A stretch of 6,060 nucleotides of DNA, taken from NCBI GenBank assembly GCA_003144275.1, contig NJBF01000097.1, positions 1 through 6,060 of the forward strand, in the 5' to 3' direction. Positions 1 through 6,060 of this stretch are shown piece after piece. Positions within the stretch are counted from its first letter, which is position 1; the number at the start of each line of letters is the position of its first letter. The notes beneath the pieces were generated by a model, which was given only the letters and a program-made list of their open reading frames with translations, was not told where the DNA came from and searched no databases. Source of the stretch: Candidatus Heimdallarchaeota archaeon B3_Heim. GTDB lineage: Archaea > Asgardarchaeota > Heimdallarchaeia > Hodarchaeales > Hodarchaeaceae. A program made the position numbers and the translations under genes.

Positions 1-2
1 CT

Positions 3-443
3 CAAAATAAAGACGAACTATATTCAAATGTAGATCTTGCTTACTCACCGGATTTATTAGGACATTTTAAATTTTCATACAAAATTCCTTTTAATCAACG
101 CATTAAAGAAATGATATTATCAGCTGCAATTAATTATGTTGATGAAATGGAGACTGACTGGGATTTGGCTAAAACAGATGCCAACGGAAACCTGATTATA
201 AATGAAGGTCTTCCGCCGGGGGGAAGAATGGGCTTCACTTCTAAAAGCACCACTTTTACAAGTTTAAATGTAAGATGTAATGACTTTTTAACAGATGGGC
301 TTAGTTTGAATTTTAAATGTTATAATCTCTTAGATAAAGATTACAGATACCCAATGTATGGTAATTATGCTATGGAGATAGACTTAGGATTCCCTGCAGA
401 AGGAAGACGATTTTTGTTTAGTATAAGCTATGAATTTAAATAG
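3..443 (+). CDS. TonB-dependent outer-membrane receptor, C-terminal part (5'-truncated by window edge)
   Basis: The frame is open from position 3 (QNKDELYSNVDLAYSPDLLGHFKFSYKIPF...), so ATG 111 is internal. It has alternating beta-strand patterning and the typical TBDR ending 'NLLDKDY...G.P..GRRFLFSISYEF(K)'. Confidence 0.8.
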   Translation, partial: QNKDELYSNVDLAYSPDLLGHFKFSYKIPFNQRIKEMILSAAINYVDEMETDWDLAKTDANGNLIINEGLPPGGRMGFTSKSTTFTSLNVRCNDFLTDGLSLNFKCYNLLDKDYRYPMYGNYAMEIDLGFPAEGRRFLFSISYEFK

Positions 444-943: not shown

Positions 944-1062
944 CAAACTAGAGTTATTTTAAGTTAAGATCAAAAATGGAAAATTTATATGAATCTTCTA
1001 AAAACTGGGATTAAAGGTAATTTGAAGTTAACTAGAGTTAAAATAAGTAAACACTAATTACG

Positions 1063-1148
1063 GTCAGGGTTTGACTTGGAGTCAGACCCAGCGAAATTGA
1101 GTTAAAGCTCAGGGGATTTTATTGCCATTTCACAGGGCAGGCCCTGAC
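1063..1148. repeat. REP-like palindrome pair downstream of DUF4956 (may also act as terminator)
   Basis: Hairpin GGGTTTGACT-TGG-AGTCAGACCC (1067-1089) and hairpin CAGGGC-AG-GCCCTG (1133-1146). The outer ends GTCAGGG (1063-1069) and CCCTGAC (1142-1148) are complementary. GC-rich islands in an AT-rich spacer. Confidence 0.45.
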
Positions 1149-1158
1149 TATTTTCATT

Positions 1159-2612: not shown

Positions 2613-2689
2613 TGACTAACTCCGCCATCCACAAAGTGATCCCTGACTGTCCGACAGGCAGGCCTTCGGGAAAATGACGGAGTTAGTCA
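2613..2689. repeat. Composite REP-like palindrome with nested hairpin
   Basis: TGACTAACTCCGCCAT (2613-2628) versus ATGACGGAGTTAGTCA (2674-2689) is a 15/16 inverted match. An inner imperfect palindrome CCTG-A-CTGT-CCG-ACAG-G-CAGG lies at 2642-2662. Confidence 0.7.
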
Positions 2690-2717: not shown

Positions 2718-2972
2718 TCAGGAACAAAGATGACTTAAAATTTCGAATAAGATGCCATACGGCTCTATGAAATCTTCAATTTTCTTGACTTTTTCAATGT
2801 CTTTCCATTTCAATTCAAAATTTTCTGATTCTTGAATTGCTGCTTCAAAAGGAAATATTATTTCTTCTTCTAAAAAATCCAATCATTTGTATAATTGCTC
2901 TTCCTTCTTTTTCGACTTAATTTCTTTTAATACTTTCTTCTTTATTTTTTGTATTCGTTCAGCATTCTTCAT
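2718..2972 (-). pseudogene. CcbP-like (calcium-binding protein family) pseudogene with in-frame TGA and apparent C-terminal truncation
   Basis: Absent from the ORF track. ATG 2972 reads MKNAERIQKIKKKVLKEIKSKKKEEQLYK*LDFLEEEIIFPFEAAIQESENFELKWKDIEKVKKIEDFIEPYGILFEILSHLCS*, with the internal TGA at 2885-2883. The pattern 'EQ...W..FLEE...FPFEA...YGIL.EI' resembles the Calci_bind_CcbP family from memory. Confidence 0.55.
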
Positions 2973-2993
2973 TGTGGCTTCGTGGATTATAAT

Positions 2994-3278
2994 CTATGAT
3001 TCAATCTTTCCATTATACAAATCCCATACTGGAAAAATCATATCATAATCATTCCAATTTAAATTCCCGTCAATTACCTGATAATTAGAAAATAAAATTT
3101 CATCAAGATATTTTTTGATAGATGGATGAAGTGACTTTGTTAAGAAAGGTTTAAAATCAACCAGTCTTTCCGTATCATCATTAAATTTAATCCTGATTGC
3201 ATAATCACCAAGATACCTTGCATTTTCAATCAAGACTGTTTGTATCTTTTGTTGATTATAATCTACTAAAATTCTCAT
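2994..3278 (-). CDS. DUF2442 domain protein (putative antitoxin)
   Basis: 94 aa, 'IENARYLGDYAIRIKFNDDTERLVDFKPFL...NLNW...D.IFPVWDLY'. ATGA overlap with the upstream DUF4160 gene. Confidence 0.85.
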   Translation of the reverse strand: MRILVDYNQQKIQTVLIENARYLGDYAIRIKFNDDTERLVDFKPFLTKSLHPSIKKYLDEILFSNYQVIDGNLNWNDYDMIFPVWDLYNGKIES

Positions 3279-3580
3279 TTTATTCTTTTTGTAATTTTTT
3301 CAAATTTAACGTCTTTATGATATACAAAGTAGTTTATCCATTTCTCTACTATTTTGTCAGAATAATTCTCAAGGAACACCTCAAAGTCTTTTAAATCTTT
3401 TCCAATCAATGGCTTTGAACCTTTTATCGCAGTTATCTTAATCTCCGAGATGACTCCATTTATAATAAAAAATTCTGCCTTACTTTCAAATTCTCCTTTC
3501 TTTGCATGAACATGAATCGGCTCATGCTCATTGGAATAAAAGAATATTAGAATTCCTAAATATTCAAAAATCTTTGGCAT
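3275..3580 (-). CDS. DUF4160 domain protein (putative toxin partner of DUF2442)
   Basis: 101 aa, signature 'MPKIFEYLGILIFFYSNEHEPIHVHAKKG...AEF'. Translationally coupled to DUF2442. Confidence 0.85.
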   Translation of the reverse strand: MPKIFEYLGILIFFYSNEHEPIHVHAKKGEFESKAEFFIINGVISEIKITAIKGSKPLIGKDLKDFEVFLENYSDKIVEKWINYFVYHKDVKFEKITKRIK

Positions 3581-3625: not shown

Positions 3626-3695
3626 GTAGTGCATTTTTGCCATGAGCCACAACGTCAGTCTGTCTAAAAAGCTCCGGTTCTAATTAAATAGTGAC

Positions 3696-3726
3696 CAAAT
3701 ATAAGCCGATTTAAGAGACGCGCAAA
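3696..3726 (-). promoter_or_regulatory. Outward-facing consensus Bacteroidota promoter in the IS right end (copy 1)
   Basis: The - strand reads TTTG (3726-3723), N19, TATATTTG (3703-3696), an exact match to the TTTG/TAnnTTTG consensus. It points out of the IS into the DUF4160 cassette. Confidence 0.7.
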
Positions 3727-3746
3727 AAAGGTGGTTAAGATTTTAT

Positions 3747-4019
3747 TCAAAAAATTGATTGCTTACATTTTTTTTCCAGGTCTCTCGATGATCGAATCTT
3801 ATTCAAATACCCATAAATGTAAAGCTTGAGCAAATCTGCCGGATGATAAGCCGGGCGACCATTGTCGACAAAGTCTGTCTTGAACCCGAACTCTTGTAAA
3901 GAAAGACTGTCTGCAAAAAGATCTATTAATCTTACTTCGTTATCAGGGTCAATAGATTGATCTAAAGAAACAGGGAAAAGATACGTTTGCGTTCTGTCGT
4001 GTCCTTTTATGAATTTCAT
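3747..4019 (-). pseudogene. IS1182-family transposase, N-terminal fragment (DUF772/InsH N-terminal-like)
   Basis: MKFIKGHDRTQTYLFPVSLDQSIDPDNEVRLIDLFADSL...GRPAYHPADLLKLYIYGYLNKIRSSRDLEK is the characteristic IS1182 N-terminus. It is fused out of frame at 3764/3765 to the IS 3' end, and the DDE domain is absent. Confidence 0.88.
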
Positions 4020-4107
4020 ACTTAAAGATACTAATAGCCAGTATCTTAATTTGGGTTTTTATCATAAAGTTATGAACAAAATCAAGAGGTTTTTAGACAG
4101 TCTGACG

Positions 4108-4234
4108 AACAGCGCTAAAATTTAGTTGCCGTTTTATTTGCAGTTTCCTTTCTATTTACTAACATATTTTATCAAAGATAATTAACTTTCATTTACCTTC
4201 AAACCGGCAATTAATTTTAACGCATGTTACCTGC
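4108..4234 (-). other. attC-like recombination hairpin (non-canonical) closing the Schlafen/AlbA_2 cassette
   Basis: The arms AACAGCGCTAAAATTTAGTTGCCG (4108-4131) and CGGCAATTAATTTTAACGCATGTT (4205-4228) pair, with single bulges (A4224 and one T in 4121-4123), two non-Watson-Crick positions and a roughly 70-nt loop. On the - strand it begins GCAGGTAAC (4234-4226) and ends ...CGCTG|TT (G4110). Confidence 0.72.
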
Positions 4235-4399
4235 TGGCTTTTATTCATTCTGTCTGTTTATCAATGCGTTGGCAAAGACATACTTATTGACAAGTTTTGG
4301 CTTGTGTGGTTGGCTTTTGAGCGACTTGGCAATGTGTATGGCTTTTGTGGTGGCAATTTCGCATTTCTCTTATTTTGATTAATAATTATTTCTAGTCAT

Positions 4400-4428
4400 T
4401 GTGCAATTTGTGCAATTAATGTGCAATT
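4400..4428. repeat. TGTGCAATT x3 short direct repeat
   Basis: Copies at 4400-4408, 4409-4417 and 4420-4428, abutting the stop codon of the 4428-5747 gene. Confidence 0.8.
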
Positions 4429-5747
4429 CATTTTAAGCTGTAAAAAGCACCTGCTCCCTTTTGTCCGCTTGGCTTTAATAATTCTTTTTCAACTAATTCA
4501 GAAAGGTCATTACTTGCTGTATTTCTAGAGCAATCATTTATTTCCTGATACGTACTATTTGTAATCTTTTCATTATCTTTTGTGTAGAGAATGGCCTTTA
4601 TCTGTCTATGATTTAAGTTGAGAGATTGTAAATATGATTCACTGTAAATGTCTTTTCTAAACTCTACCCAAAAGCCCGATGATTCGTAATAATAAGAGGG
4701 GGTTGGCAATCCTGCTTCTTTACATTTCTCTATTATTTTTATCGTTCCTCTTCCCCAGGATTCAATGTAACCACATCTAAAAACGGCATTAGCAATATCA
4801 GGGTTATAAGGTTTTGATGAATGTTTTTTTGTTAGAGTTTCAATTGTCCAGTTTTCAGGAAGTTGTCCATCGTTCCAAAACATGATTTTGTCTTTATAAA
4901 CACTAATTTGGATAGGAGTATTTCCTGAATAATCTTTATGAATTATTGCATTTAATAAAGCTTCACGGACAGCTTCTTTCGGGTATTCATATATTTCTAC
5001 TCGTTGAATATCTTCATACGAAATATTTGCTTTGATATATTTGGCAAAAAGCAAATCCATGGTTTTTTCTATTTGCTCAAATATATTACCATGTATTTCA
5101 TCCTGATACATCAATTCCGAATCTGATTCAAAAAATCCAATTTTGATATATGATCCTGTAACAAAATTTTCAGGTTTGGGATGAAATAATAGGATAGCTG
5201 CTCGTTTTAAAAATTCATTCTCTTTGAGCTGTAAATTTTCAATCAAATGTTCGTTACTGTCAGTTAATACTTCTTCTTCAATACGTTTACTCTTATAAGC
5301 TCGTTTCCGAAAAAAATCAAAAGTGTCTTCTTTTAAGTCAGAAACTAAAACATTGGGAACAGGGACACCATCCCACTTTTTACCTTTCTTTTGAAGCATG
5401 AATTTGTTCAATGCAGCTCCTTTTAATTCTTGTTTGGTGCTTCCACTTCGATAATGATATTGACCTTTGTAGTTAACAGGATAAGGATAATCTTCAACAT
5501 TTATTTCAAGGTACTCGCCTTCGGTTGTAGTATGTAGGTTTACATCTACTATAATTCCTAGAATATCCTTTGTTTTGTTCGGAATATCCTCCAACAATTT
5601 CTTTGCATTAGCAACACCAACTACATTCCCTTTATTATCTTTGCCGATGTAAATTTTACCACCTTTAGCATTAGCAAAACCGCATATCCATTTCAGATAT
5701 TCGTCTCGCCAACTGGCTTTCCATTCTGTGTTTTGGGTTTCGGGCAT
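4428..5747 (-). CDS. Schlafen/AlbA_2 domain + HATPase_c_4 + C-terminal winged-HTH protein (often annotated as 'ATP-dependent DNA helicase RecG-like' or transcriptional regulator)
   Basis: N-terminal E-x4-E-x-K (ETQNTEWK) and 'ICGFANAKGGKIYIG'. Middle 'YPKEAVREALLNAIIHKDY', 'S.PYNPDIANAVFRCGYIESWGRG'. C-terminal 'ITNSTYQEINDCSRNTASNDLSELVEKELL'. Confidence 0.85.
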   Translation of the reverse strand: MPETQNTEWKASWRDEYLKWICGFANAKGGKIYIGKDNKGNVVGVANAKKLLEDIPNKTKDILGIIVDVNLHTTTEGEYLEINVEDYPYPVNYKGQYHYRSGSTKQELKGAALNKFMLQKKGKKWDGVPVPNVLVSDLKEDTFDFFRKRAYKSKRIEEEVLTDSNEHLIENLQLKENEFLKRAAILLFHPKPENFVTGSYIKIGFFESDSELMYQDEIHGNIFEQIEKTMDLLFAKYIKANISYEDIQRVEIYEYPKEAVREALLNAIIHKDYSGNTPIQISVYKDKIMFWNDGQLPENWTIETLTKKHSSKPYNPDIANAVFRCGYIESWGRGTIKIIEKCKEAGLPTPSYYYESSGFWVEFRKDIYSESYLQSLNLNHRQIKAILYTKDNEKITNSTYQEINDCSRNTASNDLSELVEKELLKPSGQKGAGAFYSLK

Positions 5748-5774
5748 ATTTTCAGCATTTAATTATTAATCATT

Positions 5775-5782
5775 CAAAAATA
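5775..5782 (-). promoter_or_regulatory. Possible -7 promoter box for the AlbA_2 gene
   Basis: TATTTTTG matches TAnnTTTG, 27 nt before the ATG. Only a weak TTTT is found at the -33 position. Confidence 0.4.
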
Positions 5783-5944
5783 CAATTAATCCTGCGGGTA
5801 GGGAAAAAATAGCTCTTTTGGTTTTTCAGGGTTGAATTTATGTGTCAGCAAAAACCAAATGTGCTATTTGTGCGGTGGGTTTTTAATCAGTTTCAATTTA
5901 GTAGGATGTTCGTTTCTTAAAGCTTGCAGGTAACGGCAGTTTGT

Positions 5945-6058
5945 CTAAAAAGCTCCGGTTCTAATTAAATAGTGACCAAATATAAGCCGATTTAAGAGAC
6001 GCTCAAAAAAGGTGGTTAAGATTTTATTCAAAAAATTGATTGCTTTAAATGGGTTTAA
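5945..6058 (-). CDS. Probable C-terminal tail of the IS1182 transposase (partial)
   Basis: An open frame from the window edge reads LNPFKAINFLNKILTTFFERLLNRLIFGHYLIRTGAF*, with the TAG inside the terminal IR. Whether the full gene is intact cannot be seen. Confidence 0.5.
   Translation of the reverse strand, partial: LNPFKAINFLNKILTTFFERLLNRLIFGHYLIRTGAF
5977..6007 (-). promoter_or_regulatory. Outward-facing consensus Bacteroidota promoter in the IS right end (copy 2)
   Basis: TTTG (6007-6004), N19, TATATTTG (5984-5977), pointing into the AlbA_2 cassette. The single internal difference from copy 1 falls in the spacer. Confidence 0.7.
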
Positions 6059-6060
6059 TA

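What the first reader, a model, noticed from the sequence alone, without database searches (positions are those of the whole stretch)
3646..5951. IS1182-family element inserted precisely at the G|TT crossover of two successive cassette junctions
Seen (- strand): junction 1 is CGCTG-TT-[CGTCAG...CTGACG]-TT-GTGGC. Removing the IS and one TT restores CGCTGTTGTGGC, an intact core. Junction 2 is [...CTGCCG]-TT-ACCTGC, the same register. The IS terminal G regenerates GTT for the downstream cassette, and the upstream hairpin stays intact through its GTT. Known: attC targeting is described for IS1111-attC (IS110 family) elements and class C group II introns. I do not know of it for IS1182, a DDE family. 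Inference: this IS recognises the attC-like hairpin or core, inserts harmlessly, and could be excised and shuffled together with the following cassette.
Basis: partly seen in the sequence, partly recalled or inferred. Interest (0 to 1): 0.82.

Follow-up and report, generated by a model that had tools for sequence, protein, structure and literature searches.

The report
IS1182 transposon homing to attC sites
Two copies of an ordinary-looking (DDE, IS1182-family) jumping gene sit at exactly the nucleotide where integrons cut and rejoin their gene cassettes, and about 70 relatives from unrelated metagenomes sit at the same nucleotide, so this transposon lineage homes to integron recombination sites, which I found described in no paper.

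Summary
An IS1182-family element occupies two successive cassette boundaries of an integron-type array on the minus strand.

Three details need correcting:
- Copy 1 (3653-4107) is a 455-bp internally deleted derivative. Copy 2 (5934-6060) is cut off by the contig end.
- The duplicated bases are CG, not TT. The target is 5'-CG|TT-3'. The "GTT" left of copy 1 is chance sequence in the attC spacer.
- After insertion the upstream attC reads G|TC, not G|TT.

Across 70 distinct insertions of 1.6-1.8 kb relatives, both ends carry CG in every case. TT follows the right end in 64 of 65, then a purine. In 56 cases the left flank is the 3' arm of a conserved hairpin, always on the IRL side.

Cassettes that start at the IS right end are complementary, from that G onward, to the R'' box of their own attC (8-10 of 10 bases; window 9 of 10). 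This is the integron cassette signature.

The genome also carries a decayed integron integrase gene with the hallmark insert.

Hairpin targeting (IS1272) and attC targeting (IS1111-attC, group IIC introns) are known. attC targeting by IS1182 elements appears undescribed. Earlier notes of this scan report the same lineage on other DNA.

The parts
3653..4107 (-). Copy 1: 455-bp internally deleted IS1182-family element, counted with a CG at each end (3653-3654 and 4106-4107). One of the two CGs is the duplicated target.
   Evidence: Inverted repeats 3653-3674 and 4086-4107. 99% identical to positions 1-347 and 98% to positions 1566-1677 of the full-length 1677-bp element of L008, with about 1.2 kb missing between them.
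3747..4019 (-). Truncated transposase ORF (90 aa): about 85 N-terminal residues, then an out-of-frame tail after the deletion.
   Evidence: Pfam DUF772, E 4.7e-10. NF033551 IS1182 transposase, model positions 2-84, 72.9 bits. 97% identical to the 525-aa P0002.
5934..6060 (-). Copy 2: the last 127 bp (right end) of a second, longer copy, cut off by the contig end. Terminal CG at 5934-5935.
   Evidence: 97% identical to copy 1 over 112 bp. It then continues as the full-length element does (99% to L008 1558-1686), past the deletion point of copy 1.
4106..4235 (-). attC of cassette A. R'' box is GCAGGTAAC at 4234-4226, followed by a long imperfect hairpin, the spacer TGTTC and the crossover G at 4106. 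The IS left end follows directly.
   Evidence: Covariance model R1: 88.1 bits, E 2e-19, but this site was one of the 17 training sequences. Its structure is shared with 16 other sites with compensatory changes. Homologous to the L039 site.
4106..5933 (-). Cassette A (1828 bp), bounded on both sides by the IS copies. It starts TTACCTGC at 5933 and ends with G at 4106. Cargo is a 439-aa AlbA_2/Schlafen + HATPase_c_4 protein (4428-5747).
   Evidence: Cassette start against own R'': 9 of 10 bases complementary. Pfam hits.
3651..3652 (-). TT, the first two bases of the next cassette (TTGTGGC...), directly after the right-end G of copy 1.
   Evidence: Same register as 64 of 65 relatives.
2994..3580 (-). 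Cargo of the cassette downstream of copy 1: a DUF4160 (3275-3580) and DUF2442 (2994-3278) gene pair.
   Evidence: Pfam.
2613..2689 (-). 77-nt hairpin with GACTAAC ... GTTAGTC ends. It is an attC-like site of a different type and is not verified.
   Evidence: Not found by model R1. Its R'' is complementary to the following stretch rather than to the start of its own cassette.

Best explanation
The window is part of an integron-type cassette array read on the minus strand. Two successive cassette boundaries are occupied by an IS1182-family DDE insertion sequence. One copy is a 455-bp deletion derivative that keeps both ends. The other is longer and is cut off by the contig end.

The IS belongs to a lineage that inserts site-specifically into the R' core of attC sites, at 5'-(C)CG|TTR-3'. 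That is between the G and the TT where the integron integrase makes its crossover. The orientation is fixed: the left inverted repeat (IRL) lies against the attC hairpin, and the transposase gene points the same way as the cassettes.

Each insertion adds one CG. The simplest reading is a 2-bp target duplication made by a staggered cut (inferred).

The result is [attC ...CG][TCAG...IS...CG][TT-next cassette]. No gene is interrupted. The downstream cassette keeps a G|TT junction. The upstream attC now carries GTCAGAC instead of GTTRRRY as its R' box.

How the transposase finds the site is not shown. The invariant CG|TT, and two insertions at secondary CG|TT sites inside attC sites, argue for a primary-sequence component. 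Restriction to attC sites among the many CGTT in the same DNA argues for a further structural or extended-sequence component. That would fit the hairpin targeting known for IS1272 in the same family.
For: IS1182 membership:
- The full-length relative P0002 is 97% identical over the window's 90 aa. It scores 354.5 bits on NF033551 (cut-off 270) and has the DUF772 + DDE_Tnp_1 + DDE_Tnp_1_6 architecture.

Precision of insertion:
- There are 70 distinct insertion sites of 1.63-1.80 kb relatives from many metagenomes. The best tblastn segment is 64-100% identical to P0002.
- CG is present at the left end in 66 of 66 and at the right end in 65 of 65.
- The next bases are T in 65 of 65, T in 64 of 65 and a purine in 61 of 65.

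The left flank is an attC arm:
- 17 left flanks, including the window's, share a hairpin of 18 pairs. 80.7% of cells are paired against 51.8% in shuffles (0 of 500 shuffles reach this). The covariation score is 0.623 against 0.166, and slid controls give 31-41%.
- The model built from them finds 41 sites in the loci. Of these, 21 abut IRL and 19 are unoccupied; 17 of the 19 are followed by TT directly after CG.
- An unoccupied site in the own genome (C5, 54.6 bits) and 9 of 10 in two related genomes also read ...CG|TT.
- Reconstructed empty sites fold at -19.8 kcal/mol against -12.3 for control CGTT sites (p = 2e-14).

Cassette signature:
- G plus the first 9 bases of a cassette is complementary to the R'' region of its own attC. 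The mean is 9.2 of 10 (16 of 18 cassettes at 9 or more), against 5.6 of 10 for non-cognate pairs (1.3% at 9 or more).
- The nine cassettes that begin at an IS right end score 8-10 of 10; the window scores 9 of 10.

One CG per element:
- L064 reads attC-CG-[IS]-CG-[115-bp miniature element]-CG-TT.
- L056 reads IS-CG-IS.
- Near-identical empty and occupied sites occur in L088 and L092.

Integron context:
- An intI remnant on contig C77 has VchIntIA (2a3v) as its best solved-structure match, at 126 bits. The alignment runs through the integron-specific insert.
- The same threshold hits 0 of 14 control genomes.
Against: - Everything is comparative. No transposition has been observed.
- The relatives come from short metagenomic contigs. 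The own genome holds only two copies, and one is incomplete.
- Half of the left flanks (35 of 70) belong to a strongly conserved ~130-nt repeat whose R'' reads GAC or GAT rather than AAC. Its status as an attC rests on shared termini and only 5 covarying pairs.
- 14 flanks could not be classified or are too short.
- There are exceptions. L026 has the attC against the right end. L036 and L018 look like insertions at a secondary CG|TT inside or near an attC.
- The own integrase gene is broken, so the array may no longer be active.
- Sequence alone cannot tell a CG duplication from an element that carries its own CG at one end and inserts without duplication.
Confidence: 0.85

Rival explanations
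1. Survivorship rather than targeting. The IS has only a weak preference (for example CGTT), and copies persist at cassette junctions because insertions there are neutral.
For: The insertions interrupt no gene. CG|TT is a short motif, and two copies sit at secondary CG|TT sites.
Against: The control set drawn from the same 85 loci (291,087 bases) holds about 1,360 CGTT sites, yet at least 56 of 70 insertions are at the 3' end of an attC-type hairpin. All 56 are at the same nucleotide and in one orientation. Selection against gene disruption would allow any intergenic position and both orientations.
Confidence: 0.05
2. The element is moved by the integron integrase as a cassette (the IS as cargo), not by its own transposase. 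Its boundaries G|T...G|TT would then be integrase crossover points.
For: The element is bounded by G|TC and G|TT. The IS-CG-IS junction in L056 is what a circular cassette would give. The left end CG|TCAGAC is one base away from a consensus R' core, and L070 reads CG|TTAGAC.
Against: The model finds no attC-type hairpin inside the IS 3' end; its hits lie outside the element. The element has long terminal inverted repeats and an intact DDE transposase in relatives. Miniature derivatives keep only the two ends. The left junction is TC, not TT, in 65 of 66 copies; L070 reads TT.
Confidence: 0.05
3. The hairpins are not integron attC sites but some other repeated palindromic element. The IS would then simply target hairpins, as IS1272 does.
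For: IS1272 and TnSha1 of the same family insert into hairpins with little sequence specificity (PMC4923244, PMC5678879). The own integrase gene is a pseudogene, and none of the 23 other genomes of the order has one. The spacer geometry (1 nt against 5 nt) and the GAC variant of R'' are unusual.
Against: The sites have AAC...GTT ends and a conserved structure with variable sequence. Co-oriented one- or two-gene units lie between them. Each unit's start is complementary to its own R''. An IntI remnant with the hallmark insert lies in the same genome. Unlike IS1272, the hairpin is left intact and two bases are duplicated.
Confidence: 0.05

Closest known systems
IS1111-attC group (ISPa21, ISPst6, ISKpn4 and relatives; IS110/IS1111 family)
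   Same: Insertion sequences that insert site- and orientation-specifically into attC sites of integron cassettes (cited in PMC11187229 and PMC3001079; the rest from my own knowledge).
   Different: Those encode a DEDD transposase, lack classical terminal inverted repeats, make no duplication and select targets with a guide (seek/bridge) RNA. This element has a DDE transposase of the IS1182 family, 20-nt terminal inverted repeats and a 2-bp CG repeat. The two are not homologous.
Group IIC-attC introns
   Same: Mobile elements that home to attC sites in one orientation, between cassettes, without disrupting genes (PMC3001079, PMC7923331).
   Different: They are retroelements (a ribozyme plus reverse transcriptase) that insert on the other side of the structure by reverse splicing. 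No Rfam group II intron signal was found here.
IS1272 / TnSha1 (IS1182 family, staphylococci)
   Same: Same transposase family, and the target is a DNA hairpin rather than a fixed sequence. A review is quoted as noting that some IS1182 members target palindromes (PMC4923244).
   Different: IS1272 targets terminators and other hairpins of any sequence, in both orientations, makes no duplication and deletes or replaces part of the hairpin (PMC5678879). Here the site is one nucleotide position of attC sites, the orientation is fixed, the hairpin stays intact and CG is duplicated.

Membership tests
IS1182 family of insertion sequences | Transposase matching the IS1182 equivalog model (NF033551) above its cut-off | tested here: met
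   P0002 (525 aa; 97% identical to the window's 90-aa fragment, and its element is 99% identical in DNA to copy 1) scores 354.5 bits against a cut-off of 270. The window's own fragment covers model positions 2-84 at 72.9 bits, below the cut-off because it is truncated.
IS1182 family of insertion sequences | Domain architecture DUF772 + DDE_Tnp_1 + DDE_Tnp_1_6 in a single ORF of about 500 aa | tested here: met
   Precomputed Pfam domains of P0002 and about 80 relatives of 503-536 aa. In the window itself only DUF772 remains.
IS1182 family of insertion sequences | Terminal inverted repeats flanking the transposase gene | tested here: met
   22-nt arms, 91% complementary, in copy 1. The left repeat has no mismatch to the 19-nt query motif taken from the L008/L009 left end in 58 of the 72 paired full-length elements listed.
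Integron gene cassette / attC site | Imperfect hairpin bounded by R'' (...AAC) and R' (G|TT...), with conserved structure and variable sequence | tested here: met
   18 pairs; 80.7% paired against 51.8% in shuffles; 16 pairs with compensatory changes. AAC and CG|TT are at fixed positions.
Integron gene cassette / attC site | The first bases of a cassette complement the R'' of its own attC, the signature of a circular intermediate cut at G|TT | tested here: met
   Cognate pairs 9.2 of 10, non-cognate 5.6 of 10; window 9 of 10.
Integron gene cassette / attC site | An integron integrase (tyrosine recombinase with the IntI-specific insert) in the genome | tested here: inconclusive
   A remnant on contig C77 aligns to VchIntIA residues 116-271, including the insert (126 bits). 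It is frameshifted, lacks model positions 1-87 and is truncated at its 3' end. No intact copy is present in this 94%-complete assembly.
Integron gene cassette / attC site | Recombination by IntI at the site | not testable with these tools
   This needs a recombination assay.
IS1111-attC group | DEDD (IS110-type) transposase and subterminal repeats | tested here: not met
   The transposase is an IS1182-type DDE enzyme. The element behaves like this group but is not a member.
IS1272-type hairpin replacement | No target duplication; part of the target hairpin is deleted | tested here: not met
   The attC hairpin is complete up to its crossover G, and CG is present once per element plus one.

The most novel reading that the evidence does not exclude
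The ends of the IS may mimic integron core sites. The left end CG|TCAGAC differs by one base from a consensus R' core CG|TTAGAC, and the right end regenerates ...CCG|TT. An occupied attC might then remain a substrate for the integrase, so that IS plus downstream cassette, or the IS alone, could be excised, captured and shuffled as a compound cassette. Conversely, the transposase might recognise the folded attC strand that the integrase uses. That would couple DDE transposition mechanistically to integron recombination.
Probability: 0.15. Interest if true: 0.85.

Novelty: new variant of a known kind. Interest (0 to 1): 0.7.

Why it matters
- Integron attC sites were known to be colonised by two kinds of specialised element: IS1111-attC insertion sequences and group IIC-attC introns. 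A classical DDE transposon lineage that hits the very phosphodiester the integrase uses, in one orientation and across many environmental bacteria, would be a third, independent solution.
- It gives a tractable case of how a DDE transposase reads a structured, sequence-variable target.
- It bears on integron biology. Such elements can split arrays, inactivate or re-wire attC sites, seed rearrangements between cassettes and create arrays without an integrase.
- In practice, these IS copies break assemblies at cassette junctions. This contig ends inside one.
- They can also make tools that search for attC sites miss the occupied ones.

Tried and rejected
Rejected on 66 left flanks, the homologous L039 site and 27 of 30 unoccupied sites.
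- **Group II intron or other known RNA in the conserved left flanks.** No Rfam family reached its gathering score in the window and 13 loci.
- **More copies in the own genome.** There are only the two.
- **Copies in the order.** None of the 23 other genomes of the order has the IS. All but four are held in many contigs.
- **Scan of species-representative genomes.** It gave only 4 loci.
- **AAC-plus-10-mer stem score.** It separates IS sites from control CGTT sites only weakly: mean 6.75 against 5.16. It fails on the GAC-type repeat, so I did not rely on it.
- **Single-sequence folding.** Requiring the GTT to pair with an AAC was met in only 13 of 51 sites. The R-box pairing is too weak for this test, so I used the covariation analysis instead.
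- **Exact empty-site counterparts.** Only two near matches were found, L088 and L082.
- **Outward sigma-70-type promoter at the IS right end.** Nothing convincing was found. That consensus may not apply to Bacteroidota anyway.
- **Literature.** Six full-text searches found no paper linking IS1182 elements to attC sites.
Full report
**What is in the window**

The 6060-base window is a whole contig (C28) of a 3.9-Mb, 36% G+C metagenome-assembled genome. A contig labelled as an uncultured Rikenellaceae MAG (L011) is 99% identical to window 1-353.

Apart from the 3' end of an outer-membrane receptor gene on the plus strand (3-443), all the longer ORFs, including every one with a Pfam match, lie on the minus strand. 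They form short units separated by hairpins:
- a 439-aa AlbA_2/Schlafen + HATPase_c_4 protein (4428-5747);
- a DUF4160 and DUF2442 pair (3275-3580 and 2994-3278);
- a VTC and DUF4956 pair (1820-2596 and 1159-1851).

**The element**

The stretch 3653-4107 has 22-nt terminal inverted repeats. It holds a 90-aa ORF that is the N-terminus of an IS1182-family transposase.

The nearest full-length protein, P0002 (525 aa, 97% identical), scores 354.5 bits on NCBIfam NF033551 (cut-off 270). It has the DUF772 + DDE_Tnp_1 + DDE_Tnp_1_6 architecture.

Aligned to that protein's 1677-bp element (L008), copy 1 keeps positions 1-347 and 1566-1677 and lacks the 1.2 kb between them. It is therefore a non-autonomous deletion derivative with both ends intact.

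The second copy (5934-6060) is the right end of a longer element. It runs past the deletion point of copy 1 and stops at the contig end. The assembly holds no further copy.

**The junctions and what chance would give**

To see what they mean, I collected relatives: 80 metagenomic loci, two contigs by exact protein look-up and four genome loci.

72 full-length elements (1634-1803 bp) could be delimited by both inverted repeats. They give 70 distinct insertion sites.
- CG is the first dinucleotide of the left end in 66 of 66 and the last of the right end in 65 of 65.
- The base after the right end is T in 65 of 65. The next is T in 64 of 65, and the one exception is a tandem IS junction. The next is a purine in 61 of 65.
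- No left flank other than the window's ends in GTT.

**CG, not TT**

Unoccupied sites of the same kinds read ...CG|TT... with a single CG:
- three copies of the conserved repeat;
- 17 of 19 model hits in the loci;
- one in the own genome on contig C5, not used to build the model;
- 9 of 10 in two related genomes that lack the IS.

Occupied sites read ...CG-TCAG...CG-TT. In L064 an IS and a 115-bp miniature element lie side by side as CG-[IS]-CG-[mini]-CG-TT. In L056 two IS ends meet as ...CTCC-CG-TCAG.... There is thus one CG per element plus one, which is what a 2-bp duplication gives.

The attC in L039 is homologous to the window's attC. It reads ...CCGCTGTC-CG-[IS] where the window reads ...GCGCTGTT-CG-[IS]. 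The window's TT is therefore part of the 4-5 nt spacer between the hairpin and the crossover G. The empty site in the window was ...GCGCTGTT-CG|TT-GTGGC.

**Are the flanks attC sites?**

Seventeen left flanks, including the window's, have the same length (125-148 nt, most 128-131). Each begins with ...AAC-A and ends with a 3-5 nt spacer and CG.

They share an 18-pair hairpin:
- 80.7% of cells are paired, against 51.8% in shuffles (0 of 500 shuffles reach this);
- slid controls give 31-41%;
- 16 pairs have compensatory changes;
- the covariation score is 0.623 against 0.166.

A covariance model built from them finds 41 sites in the loci, all but one co-oriented with the transposase gene.

The strongest test is the cassette signature. 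An integron cassette is cut at G|TT, so its first bases should complement the R'' box of its own attC.
- For 18 cassettes the match of G plus 9 bases to the R'' region averages 9.2 of 10. Non-cognate pairs average 5.6 of 10.
- The nine cassettes whose 5' boundary is an IS right end score 8-10 of 10.
- In the window, GTTACCTGCA matches the complement of AGCAGGTAAC in 9 of 10 positions.

The terminal G of the IS therefore sits exactly where the crossover G belongs.

Reconstructed empty sites are also much more structured than control CGTT sites: -19.8 against -12.3 kcal/mol, p = 2e-14.

The genome carries an integron integrase remnant on contig C77. It scores 186 + 49 bits on TIGR02249, and its best solved-structure match is VchIntIA at 126 bits. 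The alignment runs through the integron-specific insert, which carries motifs of the ALERK..P.AG..W.W..FPS type. The gene is frameshifted and truncated.

**The second class of left flank**

Thirty-five of the 70 left flanks belong to a strongly conserved ~130-nt repeat that ends TATTGCCGGGC-CG. Its termini resemble those of the first class...GAC-G-GCAAAAA at the 5' end and ...TTGCC-GGGC-CG|TT at the 3' end. It occurs in the same arrays at cassette-like spacing. However, its R'' triplet is GAC or GAT, and I could show only five covarying pairs. I treat it as a probable attC family, not a proven one.

**Orientation and exceptions**

All 56 classified sites (21 of the first class, 35 of the second) have the hairpin on the IRL side.
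- In L026 an attC abuts the right end instead.
- In L036 the IS seems to sit at a CG|TT in the R''-L'' spacer of an attC.
- In L018 it sits at a CG|TTAG 16 nt upstream of another CG|TTAG.

These cases suggest that the primary sequence CG|TT(R) is itself read. The same loci hold about 1,360 other CGTT sites. More than four bases must therefore be recognised.

**Mechanism**

Shown:
- the position;
- the orientation;
- one extra CG per element;
- an intact hairpin;
- the family of the transposase.

Inferred:
- a staggered 2-bp cut at CG;
- recognition of the R' core plus the attC arm.

After insertion the upstream attC has GTCAGAC in place of GTTRRRY, one base away from a consensus core, and L070 even reads GTTAGAC. 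The downstream cassette keeps ...CCG|TT. Whether the integrase can still use either junction is unknown.

**Comparison with what is known**

- attC targeting is known for the IS1111-attC group (DEDD transposase, RNA-guided; PMC11187229) and for group IIC-attC introns (PMC3001079).
- Within the IS1182 family, IS1272 and TnSha1 insert into hairpins. They do so without sequence preference, in both orientations, without duplication and with loss of part of the hairpin (PMC4923244, PMC5678879).
- Six full-text searches found no paper linking IS1182 elements to attC sites. The IntegronFinder paper counts IS in integrons but names no such family.
- Earlier notes of this scan describe the same lineage, and miniature derivatives of it, in other genomes. 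My tests were made independently of them and agree.

**Verdict**

This is a real, non-chance feature. It is a new variant of known kinds: attC-targeting mobile elements, and hairpin-targeting IS1182 elements. It rests on strong comparative evidence and no experimental evidence.

Noticed in passing
L003:1500-2300 (own genome, contig C77:8755-9550): The integron integrase gene is a remnant. It is frameshifted near the HTLRH motif, and its 3' end is cut off just after the catalytic tyrosine region by several direct copies of a ~22-bp repeat (CCAGGGTAATTACAATTCCCCA-like). A gene with a Mu-transposase C-terminal domain follows, so this looks like the end of a Tn7/Mu-like transposon.
   Followed up: partly
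L064:2268-2383: A 115-bp miniature element with the same inverted repeats lies directly against the right end of a full-length IS and shares one CG with it. This lineage therefore has MITE-like derivatives even smaller than copy 1.
   Followed up: partly
L056:1900-2040: The right end of the IS is followed, after one shared CG, by 76 of 76 bases of its own left end. This is either a tandem dimer or an assembled circular form.
   Followed up: partly
L021, L037, L040, L048, L064, L066, L092 and others (left flanks): A ~130-nt repeat, highly conserved across unrelated metagenomes, occupies the place of an attC. It has GAC or GAT where R'' should read AAC. It is possibly a distinct attC family of one bacterial lineage.
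   Followed up: partly
window 1040-1150 (minus strand): A hairpin GTCAGGG...CCCTGAC followed by CG|TAATTAG. It resembles an attC 3' end with TA instead of TT, and its arms resemble the IS terminal motif GTCAG. It may be a degenerate last attC of the array.
   Followed up: no
window 2718-2990 (minus strand): Only short broken ORFs (54 aa and fragments) lie between the DUF2442 gene and the 2613-2689 hairpin. This is probably a decayed gene.
   Followed up: no
window 5807-5869: A 20-nt inverted repeat (90% complementary, 23-nt loop) lies in the leader of cassette A, between the IS right end and the 439-aa ORF. Its function is unknown.
   Followed up: no
L011:813-4190: In a near-identical relative (99% over window 1-353), a 5'-truncated copy of the same IS lies 2.6 kb upstream of the outer-membrane receptor gene, again followed by CG|TTGGCGGTAAT. 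The receptor gene there is split into two overlapping ORFs.
   Followed up: partly
L035, L049, L012: As in the window, one cassette is bracketed by two IS copies (a right end, a cassette of 0.7-1.4 kb with its attC, then the next left end). Dense occupation of neighbouring junctions therefore seems common.
   Followed up: partly
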